Source: Candidatus Heimdallarchaeota archaeon B3_Heim
GTDB lineage: Archaea > Asgardarchaeota > Heimdallarchaeia > Hodarchaeales > Hodarchaeaceae
NCBI GenBank assembly: GCA_003144275.1
Contig: NJBF01000044.1
Span: 1-26,493, forward strand
Length of the DNA stretch: 26,493 bases
Direction: 5' to 3'
The position numbers and the translations under genes are program-made. Shown in pieces: positions 21,736-26,006 of the stretch. Below the pieces are notes generated by a model, which saw only the letters and a program-made list of their open reading frames with translations, did not search any database and had not been told where the DNA came from. Every line of letters begins with the position of its first letter. Positions within the stretch are counted from its first letter, which is position 1.

Positions 21736-23148
21736 TCACTGAAAGTGATGATGAAATAACTGATTATTCTTTTTATCAACTCGCTTAAAACCATGGGCAC
21801 CAAAATATTCTCTTTGAGCCTGAATTAAATTCGCAGGTAATTTTGCACTTCTATATCCATCGAAATAAGCTAGAGCTGATGAAAAAGCAGGAATAGGAAT
21901 TCCATTATTGATAGCGAGCGTTACAACAAATCGCCAGTCTTTTTGATTACTTTCAAGTGTCTTGGTAAAATATGGATCCAAGAGTAAATTTTTCAAAACA
22001 TGATTTTCATGAAAAGCAGTCATTATTCGATTTAGAAATTTCGCACGAATAATACATCCTTCGCGCCAGATTTCTGCGATTTTTCCAAGGTCTAAGTTCC
22101 AATTATACTTTATCGATGCAATCTCAAGTAATGAGAAACCCTGAGCATAAGAACATAGTTTAGCTGCATAAAGAGCCTTTTGGGTTGCATCAATTAAAAG
22201 GTTTTTATCTCCTGAATAGTGCGATTCCGGACCTGAAAGAAGATGAGAAGCTTCGACACGTTCATTCTTAATAGCCGAAAGAAAACGTGCATGAACAGCC
22301 TCTGAAATACTTGGGACAGGAACACCTATTTCTAAAGCGTTTTGACTTGTCCATTTTCCCGTTCCTTTTTGAGATGCACTATCCAAAATCATATCGACTA
22401 TTGGCTGTCCTGTTTCAGAATCTGTTGAGGCAAATATTTCTCCTGTGATTTGAATTAAATAGGAATTAAGTTCTCCTTTCTGCCACTCGGAAAAGATTCT
22501 CGCCAATTCAGTAGCATCTAATTTCAGAACATTCTTTAGTATGAAGTACGCTTCTGCAATTAATTGCATATCCGCGTATTCAATTCCGTTGTGGACCATT
22601 TTTACATAATGTCCAGCCCCATTCGATCCCATATAACTACAACAGGGCTGATTATCGGCTTTAGCTGCAATTTTCAACAATATTTCTTTTGTATTTTCCC
22701 ACGCTTCTTCTGAACCTCCAGGCATAATTGATGGGCCTCTTAATGCTCCTTCTTCTCCACCAGAAATTCCTATTCCTAAGAAATGATAATTTTTCTTCTC
22801 TGAATCCACACATCTTCTCTGAGTGTCCATGAAATACGAATTACCCCCATCAATAACGATGTCAGCAGAATCGATATATTTTTCTAACTCTGTAATTATG
22901 TGATCAACGACATTTCCCGCTTTTACCATCAAAAAGATTTTTCGCGGTGGTTTCAAGTTCTTGCAGAATTCTTCTATATTATTATAACCAATGATAGCTT
23001 TTCCTTTTCCTACTCCCCGAAGAAAAGCCATTGTTTTTGATTTAGTTCTGTTGTAAACCGCAAGTGAATATCCATTTCTTTCCATATTTAGTGTTAAATT
23101 TTGCCCCATTACACCTAAACCGATTAAACCAATGTCTTTCTTTTCCAT
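21736..23148 (-). CDS. gndA: 6-phosphogluconate dehydrogenase, decarboxylating, long form, likely NADP+-dependent
   Basis: IGLIGLGVMG, YNRT, MVKAG, IDGGN, GISGGEEGALRGPSIMPGG, VKMVHNGIEY, QKGTGKW and AQREYFGAH. The start is placed at ATG 23148 (MEKKD), 5 nt after the upstream stop. Confidence 0.96.
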   Translation of the reverse strand: MEKKDIGLIGLGVMGQNLTLNMERNGYSLAVYNRTKSKTMAFLRGVGKGKAIIGYNNIEEFCKNLKPPRKIFLMVKAGNVVDHIITELEKYIDSADIVIDGGNSYFMDTQRRCVDSEKKNYHFLGIGISGGEEGALRGPSIMPGGSEEAWENTKEILLKIAAKADNQPCCSYMGSNGAGHYVKMVHNGIEYADMQLIAEAYFILKNVLKLDATELARIFSEWQKGELNSYLIQITGEIFASTDSETGQPIVDMILDSASQKGTGKWTSQNALEIGVPVPSISEAVHARFLSAIKNERVEASHLLSGPESHYSGDKNLLIDATQKALYAAKLCSYAQGFSLLEIASIKYNWNLDLGKIAEIWREGCIIRAKFLNRIMTAFHENHVLKNLLLDPYFTKTLESNQKDWRFVVTLAINNGIPIPAFSSALAYFDGYRSAKLPANLIQAQREYFGAHGFKRVDKKNNQLFHHHFQ

Positions 23149-23153
23149 TGTCT

Positions 23154-24434
23154 TCACATTGTCTTTAAAAATCTTTTTTTCGTCGTCCATAATCCCAACG
23201 CGGGATTTTGTATGAAATATATCTCCTCACCTGTAGGAAGAGAATTATATCCTTCAATAAGTGCTCTTGGATTATACAAATCTTCTGTTTCTGAAAGGTT
23301 TTTGTGGAGGTAATTAACTTTCATGATCTCCTCTTGAATGATATTACTAGTGCAATAAGTAATCTTAAATCGATCTTCTGATGATCCATGTATTAAATGG
23401 GCTGCTGCAGATAAATTCTCTCTTAAATCGTTATTATTTTCCACAGCATTAAGGATTTCATTTGTTTTACCATATCCATACTTTCGGATTAACCTGTCAA
23501 TTGTCTTATCCTCACCAAGACGGTTTAACCCTGGAGCCAATATAATCAATTCACCATTATCTATGAGTGCCATTCTGGTTCGGTATATAGCTTTATTTCC
23601 TACCCAGGTACTTTTGTATTCAGTAGGATCTAGGTAAACAACAACCTTCTCTAATGGCTTATCTAAAAATGTTATATTCAATTTTTGACTTAATTTGGCC
23701 GCTTTTCTAAAAGGAACATTCTTTTCTCCACCAAACAATCCTTTCATGTGAATTTTTCCAGCGGTGTTTGATTTCATGACTGTTTGAACATAGATAAGTG
23801 GTAAGTCTTCAAGAAACATTTCAAAGACATAATCGAATAAGTCTCGAACAGGTGTGGGTATTCTCCCCATAATTCGCTCGATCCCATAACAAGCTCCTAA
23901 AAAATGGCTTTTATTGATCATGTCGCTGCCTCCGACTCCAACAAGAATGTTCTTGTTTCCATTTGCCATACCTGCGACTTCATGAGGTACAACTTGACCT
24001 ATTGAAATAATCAAATCGAAATTCGTTTTCAAATGCTTGTTAATCTCTACTTTAATTGGATAGTGAAGTTTCTGTTCTGAAATTTCTTCTATAAAGTCCG
24101 ATGGAATTATTCCTAAGTCAACAACATCATTCCGCCAATCGTGTGTCAAGAAATTTTCCTTAGGAATATTACCAAACATTAAACTTTTCTCTTCGTGTGT
24201 TAAGGGAGCGTGTGTACCCAATGCTGGAAGTATAGTTATCTCACATCGGTTTCGGAGAAGGTTATATAATATTTCTGCCAATTCACCAGCATTTGAATGA
24301 AATCGTGTAAAATCAGGAGGTATGATGAGAACTCGGTTTAATCGATGATCGTAGCTATCGATTAAATTCTCTAAGAAAGCTCTTTTTTGAGTAGACGTGA
24401 TTCCATTCTCTAGTGCAATAAATTCAGAGTACAT
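23154..24434 (-). CDS. LarA-family nickel-pincer hydroxyacid epimerase (DUF2088), probable D-mannonate/D-gluconate 2-epimerase (GntE-like)
   Basis: PDFTR, ALGTH, VPHEVAGMANGNKNILVG and NKSH correspond to the LarA catalytic and cofactor-binding residues. The gene sits between a sugar kinase and gnd. Confidence 0.75.
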   Translation of the reverse strand: MYSEFIALENGITSTQKRAFLENLIDSYDHRLNRVLIIPPDFTRFHSNAGELAEILYNLLRNRCEITILPALGTHAPLTHEEKSLMFGNIPKENFLTHDWRNDVVDLGIIPSDFIEEISEQKLHYPIKVEINKHLKTNFDLIISIGQVVPHEVAGMANGNKNILVGVGGSDMINKSHFLGACYGIERIMGRIPTPVRDLFDYVFEMFLEDLPLIYVQTVMKSNTAGKIHMKGLFGGEKNVPFRKAAKLSQKLNITFLDKPLEKVVVYLDPTEYKSTWVGNKAIYRTRMALIDNGELIILAPGLNRLGEDKTIDRLIRKYGYGKTNEILNAVENNNDLRENLSAAAHLIHGSSEDRFKITYCTSNIIQEEIMKVNYLHKNLSETEDLYNPRALIEGYNSLPTGEEIYFIQNPALGLWTTKKRFLKTM

Positions 24435-24437
24435 TGT

Positions 24438-26006
24438 TCACAACTCCAATAATTCGGTATCAGAAGTAACCATATCAAAAATGGCAGGATTTTCATAAAC
24501 TTTCAAGTATCGGGTATAAAGGATTTCTAAAACGTCACGTATCTCCCCCTTCCTTGGTACTACAGGATCAAACGTTTCAAGATTGGGGACTTCTTTAATT
24601 TCTTTTATATAAGTTAATGAACGCATAGCAGTTGCCCAAGCTACAGATTGCTCTTTTTTCATGATTACAACGTTCAGATTAGTTAATGTTGCAAGAATGG
24701 TTAAGAATAACGCACTTTTTCGTGCAATTAGTCCTGTTAACCGTATTTCAGTAAAATCCTTCTGTGAGAAGAGAACATCAAAATTATGACGAAACATGAA
24801 TGAAATACCTAAAATCAGTGTAATATACAAGTCAATTGAACGTAGTAACTTACTTTCCTCAATAATAAATCCCCCTTGAATATTTCCTCTTCCTTGAGGT
24901 CCTCTTGGTTCTCCTTCTATATATGGAAAGAAAAGCGGTAGTTCCAATAAGTAAGAAGAAATTTCTTCATTATTCAAGCTGAAAATGATTATTGACTCCT
25001 TCTCCAATTTTTCGATATTCAAATGCTGTGTTTCTGTCAGATAGTTAACAAAATTTTGTTTGAAATTATGAGCAAGCCAATTAAATGAGGTACCGACGTT
25101 ATTAAATGGAATAAGTTCTACCCAAGAATTTTTATCAATTTTTACACACTGAATTAAGCGACTATTGAATATTTTTTTACGAGTATTTCGCCATCGTCGT
25201 AATGCACCTGTCGTACTTACTGAACCTACGATTACGTTTTCTTTTCTACTTCCTGTAGCCCAGAAAGCATCGATTCCATCAATTGTCCCAGCTGCGACTT
25301 GTGTATTCACAAAAAAGGGGTGTTTAGTTAATTCTTTCCTCAAAGGGAAAATTGAACCTAAAGGAATTATTTTTGGTAGAATTGTTTTCTGAAGGCCAAG
25401 GTTCTTTAGGAGTGGCCAATCCCAGTCATCATTTTTCATTGAATATAGTCCTGTATAAGAAGCGTTTGGTAGGGTGGAAAATAACGCACTTACAGGTATA
25501 TCGGTTAAATACCAAGTTATATAGTCATTCAAAGTAGTAATCTTGAAGCAGTCCTTGAAATTATCTTCTTCAACTAATTTTAGAAGTTGGACATAAGGTA
25601 GTGCTCCACTAAACATACTTCCAGTCCTTATTTGAAAATTACTATCTAATTTTTTGATAAAACTATGAGCCCCTTTATAGGCATAAGTATAAGCAGGACT
25701 AATTGGTTCCCCATTCTCAGATAGCAGCACAAGTGAGGGGCCAATACTTGAAATACTCAAGGACTGTACCTGAACATTAGTTACTTCATGAGCTAAATCA
25801 AGAAGCATTTGATTAAGAGTTTTTAGAAGTGGCGCAAGATGAATCCTTCTGTGTTCATCCCAGATGTAATAGTTACTCGTTCTTAAATGTTCAAAGGTGA
25901 CCATTTTTTTCTTGATAGTATTTCCTTCTATATTTAGGAGTAATAATCTGATTCCTGAAGTGCCAACATCAATACCGATACATCCGTGAATTTTATTTGA
26001 CATCAT
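24438..26006 (-). CDS. FGGY-family carbohydrate kinase, probable gluconate kinase by context
   Basis: IGIDVGTSG, NGEPISPAYTY, GTIDG, STTGA and LFFPYIEGE. It is the first gene of a tight three-gene operon with 3- and 5-nt gaps. Confidence 0.75.
   Translation of the reverse strand: MMSNKIHGCIGIDVGTSGIRLLLLNIEGNTIKKKMVTFEHLRTSNYYIWDEHRRIHLAPLLKTLNQMLLDLAHEVTNVQVQSLSISSIGPSLVLLSENGEPISPAYTYAYKGAHSFIKKLDSNFQIRTGSMFSGALPYVQLLKLVEEDNFKDCFKITTLNDYITWYLTDIPVSALFSTLPNASYTGLYSMKNDDWDWPLLKNLGLQKTILPKIIPLGSIFPLRKELTKHPFFVNTQVAAGTIDGIDAFWATGSRKENVIVGSVSTTGALRRWRNTRKKIFNSRLIQCVKIDKNSWVELIPFNNVGTSFNWLAHNFKQNFVNYLTETQHLNIEKLEKESIIIFSLNNEEISSYLLELPLFFPYIEGEPRGPQGRGNIQGGFIIEESKLLRSIDLYITLILGISFMFRHNFDVLFSQKDFTEIRLTGLIARKSALFLTILATLTNLNVVIMKKEQSVAWATAMRSLTYIKEIKEVPNLETFDPVVPRKGEIRDVLEILYTRYLKVYENPAIFDMVTSDTELLEL

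What the first reader, a model, noticed from the sequence alone, without database searches (positions are those of the whole stretch)
21736..26006. Thermotoga-like GntK-GntE-Gnd sugar-acid operon in an apparent archaeon
Seen: a tightly packed FGGY kinase, LarA-family epimerase and long-form gnd with the NADP-type NRT motif. Known: in Thermotoga maritima hexuronate catabolism, the LarA-family GntE converts D-mannonate to D-gluconate, FGGY GntK phosphorylates it and Gnd yields ribulose-5-P. The oxidative pentose phosphate route and long-form GndA are uncommon in archaea. Inference: a mannonate/gluconate to Ru5P + NADPH pathway, probably acquired from bacteria. It needs the nickel-pincer cofactor, and larB/C/E are not in this window.
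Basis: partly seen in the sequence, partly recalled or inferred. Interest (0 to 1): 0.65.

Follow-up and report, generated by a model that had tools for sequence, protein, structure and literature searches.

The report
Asgard sugar-acid to pentose-phosphate operon
A Hodarchaeales (Asgard) archaeon has a tight three-gene operon (sugar-acid kinase, nickel-cofactor epimerase, 6-phosphogluconate dehydrogenase) that most likely turns gluconate or mannonate into ribulose-5-phosphate and NADPH. This would explain why these close archaeal relatives of eukaryotes seem to have only half of the oxidative pentose phosphate pathway.

Summary
Three co-directional genes lie on the minus strand, separated by 3 nt and then by either 5 nt or a 37-nt overlap.

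- **Kinase:** a divergent FGGY kinase.
- **Epimerase:** a LarA homologue above the curated cut-off for LarAH group 18, "putative hexonate epimerase".
- **Gnd:** a long-form NADP-type Gnd with the NRT motif.

**Host and cofactor.** The genome is archaeal, and named relatives are Hodarchaeales. The contig matches the genome in composition. larB/larC and larE lie on other contigs.

**Conservation.** The triad keeps the same order in seven related genomes despite different flanks. One complete relative has kinase and gnd adjacent with no epimerase.

**What is missing.** None of 21 family genomes has zwf, UxaC or UxuA. So this Gnd is fed from a sugar acid, not from glucose-6-phosphate. The Thermotoga analogy holds only for the lower module.
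- The epimerase belongs to the untested group 18 (about 30% identity to TM0442).
- The kinase belongs to a small clade found almost only in Hodarchaeales MAGs; its nearest outsiders are GntK-like.

**Still open.** Bacterial origin is plausible but my trees do not show it. The source of the hexonate and the order of kinase and epimerase are unresolved.

**Prior record.** This scan already reported the same operon in another Hodarchaeales genome (e1-5454910). I found no paper describing it.

The parts
24438..26006 (-). FGGY-family sugar-acid kinase (522 aa), first gene of the operon; predicted gluconate (possibly mannonate) 6-kinase
   Evidence: FGGY_N 78 bits. Below the cut-offs of XylB and gntK_FGGY. 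The AF2 model (pLDDT 90) is closest to the L. acidophilus gluconate kinase 3LL3/3GBT, E 4e-35, TM 0.81-0.86. Nine of the ten nearest outsiders of the clade score best on gntK_FGGY. It lies next to gnd in 10 genomes and three arrangements. G11, D13, G15, S17, D243 and G244 are invariant in the clade.
23154..24434 (-). LarA homologue of group 18 (426 aa); predicted nickel-pincer-nucleotide-dependent D-mannonate/D-gluconate 2-epimerase
   Evidence: NF052594 610.8 bits against a cut-off of 500. Best PDB match by sequence is 4NAR (GntE2), E 5e-33, against lactate racemase at 1e-5. H75, H151, E152, K161 and H177 are invariant; D41, R44, V153 and K281 nearly so, across 26 homologues. It matches the group-18 signature of Desguin 2020.
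21736..23190 (-). Long-form NADP-dependent decarboxylating 6-phosphogluconate dehydrogenase (Gnd); the likely true start is M15 at 23148 (470 aa)
   Evidence: TIGR00873 699.6 bits against a cut-off of 426.7. NRT at residues 47-49. The gene-caller product is 470 aa. It forms a well-supported clade with the Gnds of the other triad-bearing genomes (97-99 support).
26007..26177 (-). Upstream non-coding region; a TATAAT-like box at 26025-26030, 18 nt before the kinase ATG, could be an archaeal TATA box of a near-leaderless transcript (inference only)
   Evidence: Read directly from the sequence. No Rfam family matches anywhere in the window. The contig ends 487 nt upstream of the kinase, so the true upstream neighbour in this genome is unknown.

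Best explanation
This is a catabolic 'sugar-acid shunt' operon of a Hodarchaeales archaeon. The LarA homologue carries the nickel-pincer nucleotide made by LarB/LarC/LarE encoded elsewhere in the genome. It inverts C2 of D-mannonate to give D-gluconate by transient oxidation to the 2-keto acid. The FGGY kinase phosphorylates D-gluconate to 6-phosphogluconate. Gnd oxidatively decarboxylates that to ribulose-5-phosphate, CO2 and NADPH. Because the family has no glucose-6-phosphate dehydrogenase, this module is what supplies Gnd, not a classical oxidative pentose phosphate pathway. Shown here: the gene identities, conserved catalytic residues, conserved operon, cofactor genes, and absence of zwf and uxaC. 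Inferred: the substrates, the order of the reactions, and the source of the hexonate (probably uptake or an unrecognised oxidoreductase).
For: Family assignments are above curated cut-offs for the epimerase and Gnd. The epimerase keeps all NPN-binding and catalytic residues and the group-18 signature. Groups 19, 20 and 15 of the same branch were shown experimentally to interconvert mannonate and gluconate (PMC7583248, PMC11770544). LarA-superfamily chemistry is C2 inversion, and the only C2 epimer of D-gluconate is D-mannonate, so a product destined for Gnd fixes the substrate. The order kinase-epimerase-gnd is identical in G136, G262, G214, G208, G292, G190 and G181 (G181 is split over two contigs) although the flanks differ. 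The complete genome G256 has kinase and gnd 70 nt apart without the epimerase, in the same flanks, and G285 has gnd-kinase adjacent. So the kinase product must already be a Gnd substrate, which favours gluconate kinase and epimerase-first. The nearest relatives of the kinase clade are GntK-like. zwf was found in 0 of 21 family genomes, but in 10 of 11 genomes of another Heimdall-group family, where it sits next to gnd in several of them. LarB, LarC and LarE are present. In bacteria, group 18 is linked to Gnd in 32% of contexts (Desguin Table S1); one example is a Bacteroidales locus with PfkB-LarAH18-2HADH-Gnd-UxaE-UxaC.
Against: No group-18 enzyme has ever been assayed. The kinase scores slightly higher on XylB (110 bits) than on gntK_FGGY (72 bits), both far below cut-off, and language-model neighbours include 'sedoheptulokinase' clusters. 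No source of mannonate or gluconate was found: no UxaC, UxaE, UxuA, long-chain UxuB, SMP-30 lactonase or obvious hexonate importer. No transketolase or transaldolase was found to use Ru5P catabolically. The gene order kinase-epimerase-gnd would equally fit a kinase-first route. A second, short-form 6PGDH exists in the genome.
Confidence: 0.6

Rival explanations
1. Same pathway, opposite order, as measured in Lactobacillus suebicus extracts. The FGGY enzyme is a mannonate kinase, the LarA homologue is a 6-phosphomannonate 2-epimerase, and Gnd takes the resulting 6-phosphogluconate. The gene order then mirrors the reaction order.
For: Valk et al. 2020 (PMC6978723) demonstrated mannonate kinase plus 6-phosphomannonate 2-epimerase activities. 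The genes are still unidentified in the searchable literature, and a GntE homologue was expressed in that organism. The gene order here is kinase, epimerase, gnd. Group 18 differs from the assayed groups 19 and 20 at several signature positions. The kinase is not an orthologue of any known GntK.
Against: G256 and G285 keep kinase and gnd without the epimerase. Under this model that would yield dead-end 6-phosphomannonate unless the kinase also takes gluconate. All assayed members of the GntE branch act on the free acids. Group 18 has Ser where groups 19 and 20 have Arg at the last signature position, so it shows no gain of a phosphate-binding residue there.
Confidence: 0.2
2. Kinase plus Gnd alone form a gluconate shunt. 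The group-18 LarA homologue acts on a different 2-hydroxy acid (another hexonate, an aldarate or a uronate-derived acid) and is only loosely coupled to them.
For: Group 18 is untested. Desguin et al. suspect that the native substrate of group 19 is not mannonate because its Km is 120 mM. Kinase-gnd pairs occur without the epimerase. In G292 the triad lies next to an IolB (208.7 bits, cut-off 205) and an unspecific SDR, which hints at other inputs.
Against: The epimerase sits between the two genes with 3-5 nt spacers and keeps that place in seven genomes. Identities of kinase and epimerase co-vary across genomes (r = 0.89). A C2 epimerase product that is to reach Gnd can only be gluconate or its 6-phosphate.
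Confidence: 0.1
3. Gnd belongs to a conventional oxidative pentose phosphate pathway fed by an unrecognised glucose-6-phosphate dehydrogenase (for example a haloarchaeal Azf-type SDR). The FGGY kinase phosphorylates an unrelated sugar such as xylulose or sedoheptulose.
For: Papers describe an oxidative PPP in Hodarchaeales (PMC10307638 'partial'; bioRxiv 10.1101/2024.07.04.601786). The kinase has weak XylB and sedoheptulokinase-like similarity. I could not search for Azf-type enzymes.
Against: G6PD_C was found in 0 of 21 family genomes, and tblastn with an Asgard zwf found nothing. Kinase and gnd are adjacent in ten genomes and three arrangements. Transketolase and transaldolase were not found.
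Confidence: 0.07
4. The contig is a bacterial contaminant in the archaeal bin.
For: The bin has 3.9% estimated contamination. LarAH18 and Gnd have bacterial relatives at 55-61% identity.
Against: The tetranucleotide profile of C14 correlates at r = 0.993 with the genome, rank 19 of 24 contigs of similar size. The triad itself scores 0.963 against a mean of 0.958 for random pieces. Seven downstream genes are syntenic with G190 and G181. The triad lies on a complete 4.94-Mb chromosome and on 209-kb and 274-kb contigs of relatives.
Confidence: 0.01

Closest known systems
Thermotoga maritima gntE-gntK-gnd branch of the UxaR regulon (aldH-pelB-gnd-uxaRED-gntEK; GntE2 = TM0442 = LarAH20, PDB 4NAR)
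   Same: Same logic: a LarA-type NPN epimerase, an FGGY kinase and a long-form Gnd lead from mannonate to Ru5P. The epimerase activity was demonstrated for GntE2 (PMC7583248; PMC3750489).
   Different: The epimerase here is group 18, about 30% identical to TM0442, with a different signature. The kinase is not an orthologue of GntK. The gene order differs. No UxaC, UxaE, UxaD or UxuB upstream steps and no pectin genes were found. The host is an archaeon.
Bacterial LarAH group 18 loci ('putative hexonate epimerase', G2E3; NCBIfam NF052594), e.g. Bacteroidales UBA2559 (locus L011)
   Same: The epimerase is a member by the curated cut-off and by signature. Linkage to Gnd is a known feature of the group (32% of contexts). 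The closest bacterial homologues are 52-60% identical.
   Different: The bacterial loci carry PfkB-type kinases, SDRs, UxaC, UxaE or KduI. Here the partner is an FGGY kinase of a separate clade and the uronate genes are missing. The JBC 2024 survey states that GntE-branch enzymes occur only in bacteria and a few unicellular eukaryotes.
Lactobacillus suebicus mannonate kinase / 6-phosphomannonate 2-epimerase route (Valk et al. 2020, PMC6978723)
   Same: Mannonate is converted to 6-phosphogluconate and then to Ru5P by Gnd. It offers a precedent for the kinase-first order that the gene order here would fit.
   Different: The activities are known only from cell extracts and the genes are unidentified. 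That organism has a full UxaC/UxaE/UxuB upper pathway.
Classical zwf-gnd oxidative pentose phosphate genes of another Heimdall-group family (f4)
   Same: Long-form Gnd in Asgard archaea.
   Different: In f4, zwf was found in 10 of 11 genomes and gnd in 11 of 11, and where both were located the two are adjacent in several genomes (G145, G178, G244, G166). In the window's family zwf was found in 0 of 21 genomes, and gnd is tied to the kinase, mostly with the epimerase as well. The two Gnd sets fall in different parts of the tree, though a single clade is not rejected.

Membership tests
LarA superfamily (NPN-dependent 2-hydroxyacid racemases/epimerases) | Lar_N domain; NPN-binding Arg, tethering Lys and His; two catalytic His, Asp and Lys (LarA D72, R75, H108, H174, K184, H200, K298) | tested here: met
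   Lar_N 65 bits against a cut-off of 23.3. The equivalents D41, R44, H75, H151, K161, H177 and K281 are present and invariant or nearly invariant in 26 homologues.
LarAH group 18 (putative hexonate epimerase, NF052594) | Score above the curated equivalog cut-off, and the signature DRHHEVKH / VWLNK / (S/G)AALIHS | tested here: met
   610.8 bits against a cut-off of 500. The signature is matched, with Val for Leu at residue 278.
LarAH group 18 (putative hexonate epimerase, NF052594) | Hexonate 2-epimerase activity | not testable with these tools
   No member of group 18 has been assayed. The function is a hypothesis of Desguin et al. 2020.
GntE2 / LarAH group 20 (T. maritima TM0442) | Close sequence kinship and the group-20 signature (HES...AWTGK...NAAVINR) | tested here: not met
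   117 bits and about 30% identity to 4NAR. The signature differs at several of the listed positions. T. maritima scores below the NF052594 cut-off.
FGGY carbohydrate kinases | FGGY N-terminal domain, two-domain actin-like fold, conserved catalytic Asp | tested here: met
   FGGY_N 78 bits against a cut-off of 28.8. The AF2 model has pLDDT 90 and TM 0.81-0.86 to 3LL3. D13 and D243 are invariant in the clade.
FGGY gluconokinase GntK (TIGR01314) | Score above the equivalog cut-off of 648.55 bits | tested here: not met
   72 bits. The nearest outsiders of the clade are GntK-like, but these too are below the cut-off at 300-622 bits.
Xylulokinase XylB (TIGR01312) | Score above the equivalog cut-off of 380.25 bits | tested here: not met
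   110 bits.
NADP-dependent decarboxylating 6-phosphogluconate dehydrogenase (long form, TIGR00873) | Score above the equivalog cut-off, both Pfam domains, and the NRT 2'-phosphate-binding motif | tested here: met
   699.6 bits against a cut-off of 426.7. 6PGD 423 bits and NAD_binding_2 153 bits. NRT at residues 47-49.
Thermotoga-type hexuronate-to-pentose pathway | Upstream enzymes UxaC, UxaE and fructuronate reductase that supply mannonate | tested here: not met
   UxaC was found in 0 of 21 family genomes. Mannitol_dh_C was not found in G000. tblastn with bacterial UxaE and UxaC queries found nothing. SDR-type reductases cannot be excluded.
Classical oxidative pentose phosphate pathway | Glucose-6-phosphate dehydrogenase (G6PD_C) together with Gnd | tested here: not met
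   G6PD_C was not found in G000 (94% complete) or in any of the 20 other family genomes searched. tblastn with an Asgard zwf found nothing.
Nickel-pincer cofactor supply | LarB, LarC and LarE encoded in the genome | tested here: met
   LarB 244 bits, LarC 128 bits and LarE 258 bits, all above their cut-offs. LarB was found in 20 of 21 family genomes.

The most novel reading that the evidence does not exclude
In the window's Hodarchaeales family, which lacks zwf, transketolase and transaldolase, the 'oxidative pentose phosphate pathway' credited to the closest archaeal relatives of eukaryotes would really be a sugar-acid shunt. It would be built around a previously unrecognised FGGY hexonate-kinase family and the first archaeal members of the GntE branch. 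[quoted passage not shown]
Probability: 0.35. Interest if true: 0.65.

Novelty: new variant of a known kind. Interest (0 to 1): 0.5.

Why it matters
Two prominent reconstructions of the archaeal ancestor of eukaryotes count Gnd as evidence for a partial or aerobic oxidative pentose phosphate pathway in Hodarchaeales (PMC10307638; bioRxiv 10.1101/2024.07.04.601786). In this family Gnd is instead wired to a kinase and a nickel-dependent epimerase, and no glucose-6-phosphate dehydrogenase was found. The trait is therefore an accessory sugar-acid utilisation module, not a eukaryote-like core pathway.

The finding also offers defined candidates for biochemistry:
- an unassayed LarA group (18);
- a small, isolated FGGY kinase clade;
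- a natural epimerase-less variant (G256) that can serve as a control.

It also extends the GntE branch of the LarA superfamily to archaea, contrary to the published statement that the branch is confined to bacteria and a few eukaryotes.

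Tried and rejected
I took synteny from the genome search and the fetch from genomes instead.
- **The single genome-contig scan**, run with one protein, returned only one locus, a Bacteroidales genome.
- **Source of the hexonate.** I searched for UxaC, UxuA, Mannitol_dh_C, KduI and SMP-30 lactonase, and ran tblastn with UxaE, PfkB and zwf queries. All were negative in G000.
- **Transporters.** The MFS transporter next to the triad in relatives is a DHA2 efflux type, not a hexonate importer. 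The neighbouring 847-aa beta-helix protein has no PDB relative by sequence.
- **Fate of Ru5P.** No transketolase, transaldolase or convincing PRK was found.
- **Does the triad replace the RuMP route?** Rejected. HPS-like genes occur in 19 of 21 genomes, with or without the triad.
- **Direction of transfer.** The LarAH tree shows one archaea/bacteria split, but it is unrooted and built from the hits nearest the query. The Gnd tree separates the family's Gnd from other Asgard Gnds, but the AU test gives p = 0.336. No outgroup sequences (groups 19/20, acidobacterial group 18) could be obtained by reference.
- **Regulatory signals.** Rfam and the bacterial promoter/terminator scans found nothing useful.
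- **Kinase specificity.** ESM Atlas neighbours were mixed: sedoheptulokinase-like by features, gluconokinase by structure.

Full report
**Observation.** The window is the whole 26,493-bp contig C14 of a 3.95-Mb, 103-contig genome (94% complete, 3.9% contamination). On the minus strand lie three ORFs.
- 24438-26006 (522 aa): FGGY_N 78 bits.
- 23154-24434 (426 aa): Lar_N 65 bits, and NCBIfam NF052594 'nickel-dependent putative hexonate epimerase' 610.8 bits against a cut-off of 500.
- 21736-23190 (484 aa): TIGR00873 gnd 699.6 bits against a cut-off of 426.7.
- Gnd carries NRT at residues 47-49. Gene callers and relatives start it at M15 (470 aa).
- The kinase stop and the epimerase ATG are 3 nt apart. 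The epimerase stop and the M15 start of gnd are 5 nt apart.

**Host.** The genome has an archaeal SSU rRNA (1400 bits over the full model) and ribosomal protein S27e. The closest homologues of all three proteins are named Hodarchaeales, Hodarchaeota, Heimdallarchaeota or Promethearchaeota by NCBI. Contig C14 correlates at r = 0.993 with the genome's tetranucleotide profile, rank 19 of 24 contigs of similar size. The triad alone scores 0.963 against a mean of 0.958 for random pieces of equal length. It is therefore neither a contaminant nor a recent import. Downstream genes (a 7TM protein, a PAS protein, GH13 and others) are syntenic with G190 and G181.

**Epimerase.**
- By sequence the best solved structure is 4NAR, the T. 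maritima GntE2 (117 bits, about 30% identity). This is far ahead of lactate racemase (28 bits).
- Desguin et al. 2020 (PMC7583248) showed D-mannonate/D-gluconate 2-epimerase activity for groups 19 and 20. They only hypothesised a hexonate substrate for group 18. They found Gnd in 32% of group-18 neighbourhoods, SDRs in 36%, ribokinase-family kinases in 16% and UxaC in 12%.
- The window protein carries the group-18 signature.
- The NPN-binding and catalytic residues are D41, R44, H75, H151, K161, H177 and K281. They are invariant or nearly so in 26 archaeal and bacterial homologues.
- Urdiain-Arraiza et al. 2024 (PMC11770544) state that GntEs occur only in bacteria and a few unicellular eukaryotes. 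The Hodarchaeales proteins extend that range.

**Cofactor.** LarB and LarC lie side by side on C15 and LarE on C97, all above their cut-offs. LarB is in 20 of 21 family genomes, and every family genome has at least one LarA homologue. In G000 the group-18 protein is the only one found.

**Kinase.**
- It misses the curated cut-offs of XylB (110 vs 380 bits) and gntK_FGGY (72 vs 648 bits).
- Word-based searching found 33 relatives at 36-84% identity. Every named one comes from a Hodarchaeales or Heimdall-type MAG, and many share contigs with the epimerase and Gnd homologues.
- A profile of the clade was searched against 1.84 billion representatives. It found three full-length clusters at 657-858 bits, then dropped to 155 bits.
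- One of those clusters holds a protein binned to Ca. Wirthbacteria on a 3.4-kb contig. The clade is therefore almost, but not strictly, Asgard-only.
- Nine of the ten nearest outsiders score best on gntK_FGGY (300-622 bits), and one is named gluconokinase by its source.
- The AF2 model (pLDDT 90.2) is closest to the L. acidophilus gluconate kinase 3LL3/3GBT (E 4e-35, TM 0.81-0.86). Xylulokinases follow at 1e-28.
- These results place the clade nearest to GntK-like kinases but do not establish specificity.

**Conservation and distribution.** The sample was 301 Asgard genomes.
- The group-18 epimerase occurs in 8 of 21 genomes of the window's family. It occurs once, more weakly, in another family.
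- The kinase clade occurs in 10 of 21 family genomes, and in G285 of another family.
- Long-form Gnd occurs in 9 of 21 family genomes.
- The order kinase-epimerase-gnd is identical in G136, G262, G214, G208, G292 and G190 although the flanks differ. G181 has it split over two contigs.
- The complete 4.94-Mb genome G256 has kinase and gnd 70 nt apart with no group-18 epimerase anywhere, in the same flanks as G136, G214 and G208. G285 has gnd-kinase adjacent.
- Pairwise identities of kinase and epimerase co-vary across genomes (r = 0.89). Gnd co-varies less (0.58-0.67), mainly because the Gnd of G262 is divergent.

**What feeds Gnd.**
- G6PD_C (zwf) was not found in G000 or in any of the 20 other family genomes. 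It is present in 10 of 11 genomes of another Heimdall-group family, next to gnd in several of them.
- tblastn with an Asgard zwf found nothing in G000.
- Eme et al. 2023 call the pathway 'partial'. Appler et al. 2024 report an aerobic oxidative PPP in Hodarchaeales and Kariarchaeaceae.
- My data suggest that, in this family, Gnd is supplied by the kinase, not by zwf.
- I found no paper describing this operon in Asgard archaea.

**What is missing.**
- UxaC was found in 0 of 21 family genomes and UxuA in 0 of 21. Mannitol_dh_C was not found in G000. KduI/IolB was found only in G292. SMP-30 lactonase was essentially absent. tblastn with bacterial UxaE, UxaC and PfkB queries was negative.
- The Thermotoga hexuronate upper pathway is therefore not present, and the source of the hexonate is unknown.
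- In G292 an IolB (above its cut-off) and an unspecific SDR lie divergently beside the triad.
- In a Bacteroidales relative the epimerase sits in PfkB-LarAH18-2HADH-Gnd-UxaE-UxaC.
- Downstream, no transketolase, transaldolase or convincing PRK was found in G000. HPS-like genes occur with or without the triad. The module therefore looks like an accessory input to the pentose-phosphate and NADPH pools.

**Mechanism and rivals.**
- LarA-type chemistry inverts C2 of a 2-hydroxy acid. If the product must reach Gnd, the substrate can only be D-mannonate or its 6-phosphate.
- The T. maritima model puts the epimerase before the kinase.
- L. suebicus extracts do the reverse: mannonate kinase, then 6-phosphomannonate 2-epimerase, with the genes still unknown (PMC6978723).
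- The gene order here fits the reverse model. The epimerase-less kinase-gnd pairs in G256 and G285 favour a gluconate kinase and hence epimerase-first.
- I put 0.6 on epimerase-first and 0.2 on kinase-first. The remainder goes to a different epimerase substrate, a hidden G6PDH, or contamination.

**Origin.**
- After the Hodarchaeales sequences, the closest relatives of the epimerase and Gnd are bacterial at 55-61% identity: Lentisphaeria, Planctomycetota, Victivallales, Melioribacteraceae, Firmicutes and Anaerolineae.
- Together with the narrow archaeal distribution, this makes a bacterial source plausible.
- The LarAH tree needs only one archaea/bacteria change, but it is unrooted and built from the hits nearest the query.
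- The family's Gnds form a supported clade apart from other Asgard Gnds, yet a single Asgard clade is not rejected (p-AU 0.336).
- The kinase has almost no bacterial kin.
- The composition is fully ameliorated. Any transfer therefore predates the divergence of the triad-bearing lineages.

**Verdict.** This is a real, conserved operon. It is a new variant of a published bacterial route in an unexpected host. It has an unassayed epimerase group and a new kinase clade, and it changes how the 'oxidative PPP' of Hodarchaeales should be read. The scan had already reported the same operon in another Hodarchaeales genome (e1-5454910). My tests were made independently on this genome and agree with that report.

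Noticed in passing
G000:C85:7219-8163 (locus L038), minus strand: A second, short-form 6-phosphogluconate dehydrogenase (314 aa; NF007161 349 bits against 271, TIGR00872 308.9 against 297.2) sits next to a dihydrolipoyl dehydrogenase. So this genome has two 6PGDHs and no zwf.
   Followed up: partly
L033 (G256:C1:1828736-1831753): A complete 4.94-Mb relative has the kinase and gnd 70 nt apart with no group-18 epimerase anywhere in the genome. The flanks (URO-D/MtaA-like gene, C45 acyltransferase-like gene) match those of genomes that have the full triad. It is a natural epimerase-less variant.
   Followed up: partly
L025 (G292:C25) 5787-7412: An IolB-type 5-deoxy-glucuronate isomerase (208.7 bits, cut-off 205) and an unspecific KduD/gluconate-5-dehydrogenase-like SDR lie divergently next to the triad. 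This is the only KduI/IolB-family gene found in the 21 family genomes, and it may mark an inositol or uronate input in that lineage.
   Followed up: partly
L024 (G208:C39) 29-5529; similar layout (ORF sizes only) in L021, L023, L033: In the annotated locus L024, an 847-aa right-handed beta-helix protein (Beta_helix 202 bits, NosD 136 bits, weak pectate-lyase-like), an EamA transporter and a DHA2-type MFS efflux pump flank the triad. L021 and L023 show ORFs of matching size and order. The beta-helix protein has no PDB relative by sequence.
   Followed up: partly
G000:C31:62660-63529 and G000:C27:12391-13260: There are two RuBisCO large-subunit homologues (282 and 149 bits), while transketolase, transaldolase and a convincing phosphoribulokinase were not found. 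The fate of Ru5P in this organism is unclear.
   Followed up: no
L022 (G262:C46) 7350-8789: The Gnd of G262 is much more divergent from its relatives (56-62% identity) than the kinase and epimerase of the same operon (62-76%). It groups with a separate early branch of the family's Gnd clade, so gnd may have been replaced within the operon.
   Followed up: no
window 11255-15812: A mannosylglucosylglycerate-synthase-like glycosyltransferase (369 bits, below the cut-off of 640), a GT4 glycosyltransferase and a GH13 sucrose-phosphorylase-like enzyme lie next to an ABC sugar importer with oversized permeases (3656-9053). Other notes of the scan already cover this.
   Followed up: no
window 26178-26342, minus strand: A 54-aa hydrophobic small ORF lies upstream of the kinase, near the contig end. 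No equivalent ORF stood out upstream of the kinase in the ORF listing of the closest relative (G190), though ORFs that short were not listed.
   Followed up: no
protein P0422 (cluster of P0151): One member of the otherwise Hodarchaeales-only kinase clade (about 40% identical to the window kinase) is deposited as Candidatus Wirthbacteria on a 3.4-kb contig. It could be a binning error or a real bacterial member.
   Followed up: no
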